Below, one piece after another: positions 12,843 through 12,972 of a stretch of DNA of 64,000 bases. The DNA is taken from positions 20,103 through 84,102 of IMG/VR virus record IMGVR_UViG_3300025122_000010. The stretch is one strand, 5' to 3'. Both the position numbers and the translations under genes were made by a program. Source of the stretch: a virus. Numbering within the stretch: position 1 is the stretch's first letter; every line of letters starts with the position of its first letter. The notes beneath the pieces were generated by a model, which had not been told where the DNA came from, did not search any database, and saw nothing but the letters and a program-made list of their open reading frames with translations.

Positions 12843-12972
12843 AGATCAACAAATCGTCTAATGGAAAGACACTTTGCTTGAGGAGGGCTGGTTCGACTCC
12901 AGCTGACGCGTAGTAGCTCACGAGGGAGAGCGCTGAGAAGAAATGCAGGTTCGAATCCTGTTTTGTTGATCT
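12843..12972 (+). ncRNA. Double-elbow tRNA-like RNA (two D-arms, two T-arms, no anticodon)
   Basis: AGATCAACAAA/TTTGTTGATCT outer stem; D-arm, T-arm, short hairpin, D-arm, T-arm. Confidence 0.7.

What the first reader, a model, noticed from the sequence alone, without database searches (positions are those of the whole stretch)
12843..12972. Double-elbow tRNA mimic: two D-arms and two T-arms joined through a shared anticodon-like helix
Seen: an 11-bp closing stem AGATCAACAAA/TTTGTTGATCT, then D-arm (TC-GTCT-AATGGAA-AGAC-A), a linker helix strand (CTTT..TTGAG), T-arm (GCTGG-TTCGACT-CCAGC), a short segment, a second D-arm (TA-GCTC-ACGAGGGA-GAGC-G), the complementary linker strand (CTGA-GAAG) and a second T-arm (GCAGG-TTCGAAT-CCTGT). 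There is no anticodon loop and no CCA. Known: the inner T-then-D order is the circularly permuted tRNA module of bacterial YrlA Y RNAs. Inference: an RNA presenting two tRNA elbows, possibly a decoy or scaffold for elbow-recognising proteins.
Basis: partly seen in the sequence, partly recalled or inferred. Interest (0 to 1): 0.8.

Follow-up and report, generated by a model that had tools for sequence, protein, structure and literature searches.

The report
Two-elbow anticodon-less phage tRNA mimic
At the end of a tRNA operon, a marine giant-phage fragment carries a 130-base gene shaped like a tRNA whose anticodon loop is replaced by a second set of tRNA arms; it cannot read codons and is probably a tRNA look-alike, but this copy has no known relatives and its central stem is weak.

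Summary
Rfam's tRNA model spans 12847-12969 at 42.9 bits, with 58 nt where the anticodon loop should be.

The proposed "shared anticodon-like helix" is not supported. It has only 4 pairs, is no better than shuffles, and has zero ensemble probability.

I found no sequence relatives. The same arm order does recur, with unrelated sequences, in 10 other viral, metagenomic or genomic stretches. Nine of these read as true dumbbells. They have a strong connecting helix that covaries in the one three-member subfamily tested.

The 15:48 tertiary pair fits the D1-with-T2 and D2-with-T1 partnership in 22 of 22 cases, this element included.

The element fails every YrlA membership criterion I could test except arm order. 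It also lacks two features of the recurring doubles: the inner acceptor hairpin and a stable connecting helix.

Earlier notes of this scan report double-headed tRNA mimics on other DNA.

Verdict: most likely a non-decoding, two-elbow tRNA mimic. It is a reduced variant of an undescribed design, and its function is inferred only.

The parts
12843..12853 (+). 5' strand of the closing stem. 12847-12853 is the 7-nt tRNA acceptor strand, and 12843-12846 extends it by 4 pairs.
   Evidence: 11 of 11 pairs with 12962-12972; pair probabilities 0.69-1.00; the Rfam tRNA alignment starts at 12847.
12854..12870 (+). Positions 8-9 (UC) and D arm 1 (4-bp stem, 7-nt loop).
   Evidence: The loop keeps A14, A15, G18-G19 and A21. 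Stem probability is only 0.37-0.39.
12871..12886 (+). Linker A: position 26, then four bases (12872-12875) that can pair with 12937-12940, then an 11-nt purine-rich stretch ending in the base that complements position 15 of D arm 2.
12887..12903 (+). T arm 1 (5-bp stem, canonical 7-nt T loop).
   Evidence: stem probability 0.67.
12904..12915 (+). 10-nt joint followed by UA (positions 8-9 of the inner module). It stands where the other doubles and YrlA have an acceptor-like hairpin; here at most 2-3 weak pairs are possible.
   Evidence: adding the mini-stem raises the energy to -27.1 kcal/mol.
12916..12931 (+). D arm 2 (4-bp stem, 8-nt loop).
   Evidence: stem probability 0.95-0.96.
12932..12944 (+). 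Linker B: five bases, then the four bases (12937-12940) that can pair with 12872-12875, then a 4-nt variable loop ending in the U that complements A15 of D arm 1.
12945..12961 (+). T arm 2 (5-bp stem with one G-U, canonical T loop).
   Evidence: probability 0.88-0.98. Also flagged as terminator-like, with its T-rich tail.
12962..12972 (+). 3' strand of the closing stem (acceptor 3' strand 12962-12968, then four further paired bases instead of a free discriminator and CCA).
12973..12980 (+). T-rich tail directly after the closing stem. It overlaps the start of the next promoter-like site (12978-13016).

Best explanation
The element is a tRNA-derived small RNA gene that does not decode. It is the last structured RNA of an early transcription unit: promoter-like site near 10611-10652, tRNA-Asn, RlaP, two small ORFs, tRNA-Ala, tRNA-Thr, then this element, then the next promoter-like site.

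Shown:
- It keeps a complete outer tRNA frame (acceptor, D arm, T arm).
- The anticodon loop of that frame is replaced by a second T arm and D arm in permuted order.
- There is no anticodon loop and no CCA.
- The acceptor is closed into an 11-bp stem.

Inferred: it folds into two tRNA-type elbows, D1 with T2 on the closing stem and D2 with T1. These are joined by a short, flexible connection rather than a firm helix. The RNA cannot be charged or read codons, so it would act through its shape. Possible roles are a stable mimic that occupies or gathers factors reading the tRNA elbow (RNase P, T- and D-loop modification enzymes, or a phage or host tRNA-binding protein), in a phage that also carries tRNA-repair genes. 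Which factor is involved is unknown.
For: - The arms and closing stem are intact.
- The Rfam tRNA model matches end to end at 42.9 bits despite a 58-nt insert.
- Tertiary-contact bases are kept in both modules. The 15:48 pair is complementary in the swapped reading (A:U and C:G) and not in the unswapped reading.
- None of the four parts is a close copy of any of the 34 tRNAs of the window, so it is not a fresh duplication.
- The same arm order recurs in 10 other stretches. In one three-member subfamily, 11 pairs changed on both sides, which 0 of 500 shuffles reached.
- 32 of 34 true tRNAs end in CCA and this element does not.
- No plausible ORF is present: only frames of 20-46 aa inside the region, plus an 88-aa minus-strand frame (12570-12836) that overlaps the upstream tRNA genes and does not reach the element.
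- The neighbourhood holds RlaP, TROVE and a PF01743 CCA-adding-type enzyme.
- YrlA, the nearest described mimic, folds like tRNA and is read by TruB, DusA and, in one species, RNase P (PMC4201824 and 10.1101/312249, passages).
Against: - I found no sequence relative, so there is no covariation for this copy. The only run covering it is identical.
- The central helix is at chance level with probability 0.00, and a competing D2-stem extension is favoured.
- The MFE z-score is only -1.41.
- The inner acceptor hairpin present in the other doubles is missing.
- The class model R2 gives 50.3 bits, which lies within the range of ordinary tRNAs (up to 56.8).
- There is no RNA evidence.
- The inner 15:48 pair is C:G, not one of the two usual forms.
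Confidence: 0.5

Rival explanations
1. The element is dead DNA: the remains of two or more tRNA genes rearranged by recombination or homing-endonuclease traffic in the array. It would be transcribed, if at all, as a by-product.
For: - It is a singleton in all collections searched.
- The central helix is weak and there is no inner acceptor hairpin.
- A homing-endonuclease-type ORF (NUMOD3) lies in the same array at 15377-15967.
- Two further imperfect tRNA-like stretches lie nearby: 13046-13116 at 23.1 bits and 16036-16104 at 30.7 bits.
Against: - All five stems are intact, and both loop pairs keep the tertiary bases.
- The two 15:48 pairs fit the swapped topology.
- No part is a recent copy of a tRNA in the window.
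- The T1-to-D2 spacing of 10 nt cannot arise from a simple junction of two neighbouring tRNA genes, which needs at least about 15 nt of acceptor strands. Several precise deletions would be required (inference).
- The same design is conserved elsewhere.
Confidence: 0.25
2. The element is an operon-end device. Its closing stem and T arm 2, followed by the T-rich tail, stop transcription or block 3' exonucleases and mark a processing site for the upstream RlaP and tRNA transcript. The tRNA shape would matter only for stability.
For: - It sits between the last tRNA of one unit and the next promoter-like site at 12978-13016. T arm 2 plus its tail is flagged as terminator-like.
- The other copy of the promoter-like site (10611-10652) is preceded by a strong hairpin terminator at 10381-10411.
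Against: - The scan found 4 terminator-like sites against 2.7 expected, so the flag is weak.
- The stem next to the T run is A/U-rich.
- A simple hairpin would do this job. It does not explain two complete D arms or the kept tertiary bases.
Confidence: 0.1
3. The element is the tRNA-like Y RNA partner (YrlA type) of the phage's own Ro60/TROVE protein.
For: - A 564-codon TROVE frame lies on the same strand of the same record.
- The inner T-then-D order matches the YrlA module (PMC4201824).
- Rfam finds no YrlA next to the TROVE gene itself.
Against: - The YrlA model scores 15.6 bits (E = 2.3) against a gathering score of 69.
- There is no GNCGAA motif in the element or within 40 nt.
- It lies 13,592 nt from the TROVE stop codon, whereas the published criterion is 4 kb.
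- Three other small structured units with a shared motif stand directly upstream of TROVE and are better candidates.
- None of 5 virus records carrying doubles or partial doubles holds a TROVE gene.
Confidence: 0.08
4. The element is a tRNA gene interrupted by an intron-like insert that is removed to give a working tRNA.
For: Rfam aligns the outer parts as a full tRNA with the insert in the anticodon loop. A 7-nt loop with a UGA anticodon can be drawn at the 5' edge of the insert (my reading).
Against: - No intron family matched.
- The anticodon stem would have only 4 pairs with a G-A mismatch.
- The window already has a class II tRNA-Ser(UGA) at 22827-22910.
- There is no CCA, unlike 32 of 34 tRNAs.
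- The insert itself is made of intact tRNA arms.
- From general knowledge, no splicing route for such inserts is known in bacteria or their phages.
Confidence: 0.03

Closest known systems
YrlA (Y RNA-like A, Rfam RF02553), the tRNA-like Y RNA of bacteria and some phages
   Same: Non-decoding tRNA mimic with a T arm followed by a D arm (a circularly permuted tRNA module) and no free CCA. Encoded in a genome that has Ro60/TROVE, and thought to work through the elbow (PMC4201824; 10.1101/312249; passages).
   Different: - No GNCGAA Ro-binding motif.
- No acceptor-like hairpin between T and D.
- 13.6 kb from TROVE.
- 15.6 bits against a gathering score of 69.
- The terminal stem is not a Ro-binding stem but a tRNA acceptor carrying its own D and T arms, which gives a second elbow.
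Canonical and phage-encoded tRNA (Rfam RF00005)
   Same: The outer frame (7-bp acceptor, D arm, 4-nt variable loop, T arm, A15:U48) scores 42.9 bits. It lies inside a 34-gene tRNA array.
   Different: No anticodon loop (58-nt insert), no CCA, and the acceptor is extended to 11 bp with no free discriminator.
The recurring 'double' tRNA mimics found here (L035, L039, L045, L089, L317, L335, L344, L357, L372), and earlier notes of this scan on other DNA
   Same: Same order of parts: acceptor, D1, linker, T1, joint, UA, D2, linker, T2, acceptor. Same swapped 15:48 logic, and several also sit in phage tRNA arrays.
   Different: - The others have an inner hairpin of 2-5 bp capped by a 3-4-nt loop.
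- Their connecting duplex is -11 to -27 kcal/mol.
- Their acceptor is 7-8 bp.
- This element has none of the three.
- It has no sequence similarity to them beyond the universal tRNA core, and its R2 score of 50.3 bits is within the tRNA background.
T4 RNA C and RNA D (species 1 and 2 stable RNAs of the T4 tRNA cluster)
   Same: Small non-tRNA RNAs at the distal end of a phage tRNA cluster, next to a homing endonuclease, with unknown roles (PMC3014915, one passage; annotation of NC_000866).
   Different: The T4 RNAs show a single T arm (RNA C) or none. They are not hit by the tRNA model at E up to 1, so they are not two-elbow RNAs.
Dimeric pre-tRNAs and circularly permuted tRNA genes, as discussed by Wang et al. 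2018 (10.1101/312249)
   Same: That preprint proposes that YrlA arose from a dimeric pre-tRNA in which T of the first and D of the second tRNA form the mimic. The doubles look like such a dimer with both outer arms still intact (passage).
   Different: Those precursors are processed into working tRNAs with anticodons. Here neither body has an anticodon loop.

Membership tests
tRNA (RF00005) | Cloverleaf frame: 7-bp acceptor, D arm, T arm, above the Rfam gathering score. | tested here: met
   42.9 bits against 29, model positions 1-71.
tRNA (RF00005) | Anticodon arm with a 7-nt loop and an anticodon. | tested here: not met
   58 nt replace the loop. ARAGORN makes no call here.
tRNA (RF00005) | Free 3' end with discriminator and CCA (encoded in this phage's tRNAs). 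| tested here: not met
   32 of 34 tRNAs end in CCA. The element continues its stem for 4 more pairs and has no CCA.
YrlA (RF02553) | Score at or above the Rfam gathering score. | tested here: not met
   15.6 bits, E = 2.3, gathering score 69, model positions 31-81 only.
YrlA (RF02553) | T stem-loop, then acceptor-like stem-loop, then D stem-loop. | tested here: not met
   The T-then-D order is present, but the 10-nt joint forms no stable stem.
YrlA (RF02553) | GNCGAAN0-1G motif near the 5' end (the proposed Ro60 contact; PMC4201824). | tested here: not met
   No match on the + strand of the element or its 40-nt flanks.
YrlA (RF02553) | Encoded within about 4 kb of Ro60 on the same strand (PMC4201824). 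| tested here: not met
   Same strand, but 13,592 nt downstream of the TROVE stop codon.
   21 of 21 stem pairs in the common parse.
   A:U and C:G. The unswapped reading fails on both. Class total 22 of 22 against 12 of 22.
   Present in 9 of the 10 others by eye; in L420 the joint is better read as two overlapping acceptor strands. Absent here.
   -3.9 kcal/mol and probability 0.00 here. The others reach -11.1 to -26.7 kcal/mol, and 7 of 10 have 9-13 such pairs in the MFE.
   Own 50.3 bits, ordinary tRNAs up to 56.8, other doubles 55.4-78.9. The model was built from only 3 sequences.
Intrinsic terminator | G+C-rich hairpin directly followed by a T run. | tested here: inconclusive
   T arm 2 plus its tail is flagged, but 4 sites were found against 2.7 expected, and the closing stem is A/U-rich.

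The most novel reading that the evidence does not exclude
The element is a working, reduced member of an undescribed class of phage and prophage RNAs: 'dumbbell' tRNAs. In these, two L-shaped tRNA bodies are built from one chain by domain swapping, with D1 working with T2 and D2 with T1, and with no anticodon. This would be the intermediate that Wang et al. (2018) postulated between dimeric pre-tRNAs and YrlA-type Y RNAs. Such RNAs would act as bivalent decoys or scaffolds for elbow-reading factors during the contest over tRNAs between phage and host.
Probability: 0.3. Interest if true: 0.8.

Novelty: new variant of a known kind. Interest (0 to 1): 0.6.

Why it matters
tRNA mimics such as tmRNA, viral tRNA-like structures and YrlA each present one tRNA body. 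An RNA that presents two elbows on one chain, without an anticodon or an acceptor end, would be a new way of using the tRNA fold.

This raises testable questions:
- Which elbow-reading factor binds it?
- Does bivalency matter?
- Do phages use such RNAs alongside their tRNA-repair genes (RlaP, Ro60, CCA-adding enzyme)?

The recurring doubles also give concrete candidates for the proposed descent of Y RNAs from dimeric tRNAs.

For this copy alone the case is weaker. It is a singleton with a doubtful central stem.

Tried and rejected
**Sequence relatives**
- blastn of 701 and 130 bases against 50,697 phage records gave only generic tRNA matches.
- An exact 30-mer from the window was absent from viral contigs.
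- Neighbouring proteins gave nothing close: RlaP alone found none and RecA only 33% identity.
- An RlaP alignment found 453 loci, of which 80 were fetched. Model R1 found no double in them.

**Sequencing runs**
- No RNA holder was listed.
- Of four runs laid, only X5 covers the element, and it is identical. This gave no variants and no information on ends.
- Loose ends before 12987 in X5 and X10 show other sequence upstream of the repeated promoter-like stretch. That stretch has 6-8 times the depth of its surroundings, so it says nothing about the element.

**Pattern scans**
Hits were mostly a tRNA followed by a small T-arm element, not doubles.
- Single-sequence model R1 mostly found ordinary tRNAs.

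**Context of the other doubles**
- The Pfam context of six of them was incoherent: two serine recombinases, one C5 methylase, and seven proteins with no match.

**Alignments**
- In alignment A3 I included the discriminator of the own element, so its last columns are shifted. I did not count pairs on it.
- Alignment A6 carried a needless 1.8-kb row.

**Readings rejected**
- Intron-containing tRNA, YrlA membership and a small ORF (see the rival explanations).
- T4 RNA C and RNA D as the same kind of RNA.

**Literature**
- Searches for a described two-elbow or anticodon-less phage tRNA mimic found none. Subscription journals and supplements were not searchable, and the supplementary tables of Chen et al. 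2014 may list phage RNAs that bear on this.

**Papers seen**
- PMC4201824 and 10.1101/312249: passages found by term.
- PMC7824862: passages.
- PMC3014915: one passage.
- PMC12776372: abstract and outline only.

Full report
**Where it lies.** The window is bases 20103-84102 of an 84,102-base IMG/VR virus record that CheckV rates 31% complete. Its DNA occurs in marine metagenomes. The window holds 34 ARAGORN tRNA genes, all on the + strand.

Upstream of the element lie gp32-like, RecA-like and RlaP (PF10127) genes. The same record also holds a 564-codon TROVE/Ro60 frame and a PF01743 CCA-adding-type enzyme. It has no RtcB.

Promoter-like sites recur at 10611-10652 and 12978-13016. The element therefore closes a unit that runs tRNA-Asn, RlaP, two small ORFs, tRNA-Ala, tRNA-Thr, then the element.

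**The observation.** The sequence at 12843-12972 is as described. An 11-bp perfect stem closes the element. Inside it lie D arm 1, T arm 1, D arm 2 and T arm 2, all with fully paired stems (21 of 21 pairs for acceptor, D1, T1 and T2).

Rfam's tRNA model aligns 12847-12969 from model position 1 to 71 at 42.9 bits, with 58 nt where 6 loop positions belong. ARAGORN does not call it. It has no CCA, whereas 32 of 34 called tRNAs end in CCA. The composite motif occurs once in the window and in none of 100 shuffles. The region holds only short frames of 20-46 aa plus the end of an 88-aa minus-strand frame that overlaps the upstream tRNA genes, so no ORF explains it.

**The weak point.** The 'shared anticodon-like helix' is weak.
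- Four pairs (12872-12875 with 12937-12940) are real. They stand where the tRNA model expects pairs 27-30 with 40-43.
- The best duplex between the two linkers is -3.9 kcal/mol, matched by 29.6% of shuffles.
- In the thermodynamic ensemble the helix has probability 0.00. A four-pair extension of the D2 stem has 0.76-0.86.
- The whole RNA is not unusually stable (z = -1.41).

The arms are therefore solid, but how the two halves are held together is open.

**Relatives.** I found no sequence relatives.
- blastn against phage records gave nothing specific, and an exact word search found nothing.
- Structural patterns that the element itself satisfies gave 113 viral, 50 metagenomic and 56 genomic stretches. 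None resembles it in sequence.
- The only public run that covers it is identical.

**The design recurs.** Among 125 core pattern hits, an automatic parse found 10 distinct other stretches with the full order acceptor-D1-linker-T1-joint-UA-D2-linker-T2-acceptor.
- Four are in viral contigs (L035, L039, L045, L089). Several of these sit in tRNA arrays.
- Four are in metagenome contigs (L317 = L362, L335, L344, L357).
- One is in a Kitasatospora genome (L372) and one in a Planctomycetota MAG (L420).
- L420 is better read as two tandem mini-tRNAs, each with its own short capped anticodon stem. That leaves nine dumbbells.

Their connecting duplexes reach -11.1 to -26.7 kcal/mol. Seven of the ten fold with 9-13 linker-linker pairs in the MFE. 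L089, L317 and L420 do not.

In the one subfamily with three members (L039, L344, L357), the dumbbell structure pairs 98.1% of cells. Eleven pairs changed on both sides: five of seven in the outer acceptor and four of nine in the connecting helix. None of 500 shuffles reached this, and slid controls gave 0-1. Three sequences are few, and the shuffle control does not correct for relatedness.

Rfam holds no family for these stretches other than tRNA.

**A test that includes the own element.** In tRNA, base 15 of the D loop pairs with base 48, the last base before the T stem. I compared base 15 of each D loop with the last base before each T stem in all 11 RNAs.
- In the swapped reading (D1 with the base before T2, D2 with the base before T1), 22 of 22 are complementary.
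- In the unswapped reading, 12 of 22 are complementary.
- The five RNAs in which the two readings differ, the own element among them, give 10 of 10 against 0 of 10.

For the own element the pairs are A:U (outer) and C:G (inner, an unusual orientation). By chance both would fit about once in 16. This is the best evidence that the own copy is built to the same plan. It supports two elbows formed by D1 with T2 and D2 with T1.

**Where the own copy departs.**
- The joint between T1 and D2 is 10 nt without a stable stem. The other doubles have a 2-5-bp capped hairpin there.
- The connecting helix is at chance level.
- The acceptor runs on for 11 bp with no free discriminator. The others have 7-8 bp followed by an unpaired A (and my reading).
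- A class model built from the trio scores it at 50.3 bits. Ordinary tRNAs reach up to 56.8 and the other doubles score 55.4-78.9, so the score cannot settle membership.

**Comparison with known families.**

*YrlA.* The module is T arm, acceptor-like stem-loop, D arm, with a GNCGAAN0-1G motif near the 5' end. It is encoded within 4 kb of Ro60 on the same strand (PMC4201824, passages). It folds like tRNA with a closed acceptor and no CCA (10.1101/312249, passages). The element shares the arm order, the lack of CCA and a genome with Ro60. It fails on score (15.6 against 69 bits), motif and distance, and on the acceptor-like stem.
- Three other structured units with a shared motif stand directly before the TROVE gene.
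- Five virus records with doubles or partial doubles have no TROVE gene.
- The Kitasatospora genome has TROVE on another contig.

*The dimeric pre-tRNA proposal.* The discussion of that preprint proposes that YrlA descended from a dimeric pre-tRNA. The doubles look like such a dimer folded by domain swapping, with L420 as a less-derived form. This is my inference.

*T4 RNA C and RNA D.* These are the classical small RNAs of unknown role at the end of a phage tRNA cluster (PMC3014915). They have one T arm or none and are not two-elbow RNAs.

*RlaP.* It adds one or two nucleotides to RNA 3' ends and is linked to tRNA repair (PMC12776372, abstract; PMC7824862, passages). That sets the neighbourhood but shows nothing about this RNA.

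**Verdict.** The most likely reading (about 0.5) is a non-decoding tRNA mimic with two elbows. It would be a reduced variant of a design that recurs in phages and prophages, and that I found in no Rfam family and in none of four literature searches.

Rivals: debris of rearranged tRNA genes (0.25), an operon-end stabiliser or terminator (0.1), a Ro60 partner RNA (0.08), and an interrupted tRNA (0.03).

Earlier notes of this scan report double-headed tRNA mimics on other DNA. I did not see their sequences, and my set was found independently.

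Noticed in passing
L315-L364 and L365-L420 (for example L327, L332, L333, L339, L343, L319, L053/L346, L356): Many metagenome contigs and Bacteroidota genomes (Sphingobacterium, Chitinophagaceae, Saprospiraceae, Cyclobacteriaceae) carry chains of units: T arm, short capped hairpin, D arm, 13-20-nt linker, T arm. These are arrays of tRNA-like bodies without anticodon arms. Two recurring upstream motifs mark subgroups. Rfam gave only tRNA hits for the 12 loci tested.
   Followed up: partly
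G000:C1:17283-17649 (about 2.5-2.8 kb before the window start): Three small structured units directly upstream of the TROVE frame share an AGCAAG...YUACUUC motif near the 5' end and an AUUCU motif near the 3' end. Rfam finds no YrlA there. They are candidate Y RNAs of the phage Ro60.
   Followed up: partly
window 13046-13116: A pseudo-tRNA with good D and T arms but a zipped anticodon arm (6 bp closed by 4 nt) and three acceptor mismatches. It scores 23.1 bits, below the tRNA gathering score. Its D arm is the closest match in the window to D arm 1 of the element.
   Followed up: partly
window 10611-10652 and 12978-13016: Two copies of the same promoter-like pair of sites. Contig depth over 12986-13027 in run X5 is 6-8 times that of its surroundings, so this stretch is repeated in the phage or its relatives.
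   Followed up: no
window 11318-11472 and L119:6280-6420: A tRNA-like RNA with one T arm lies just upstream of RlaP in the window. A loosely similar one lies 1.6 kb upstream of a 45%-identical RlaP in another viral contig. This may be a conserved RlaP-linked RNA, but the alignment is weak.
   Followed up: partly
L420:1182-1311: Two tandem near-identical mini-tRNAs whose anticodon arms are 4-bp stems capped by 4-6 nt and whose acceptor strands overlap. This is a possible less-derived relative of the doubles.
   Followed up: no
L199, L206, L247, L267, L279, L295, L304 (viral contigs): Elements that follow tRNAs in phage arrays often carry a CAGCAA word ahead of a lone T arm. The element studied here has no such word.
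   Followed up: no
window 15377-15967: A NUMOD3 / restriction-endonuclease-like ORF (homing-endonuclease type) sits inside the tRNA array, directly before tRNA-Ala at 15953-16027.
   Followed up: no
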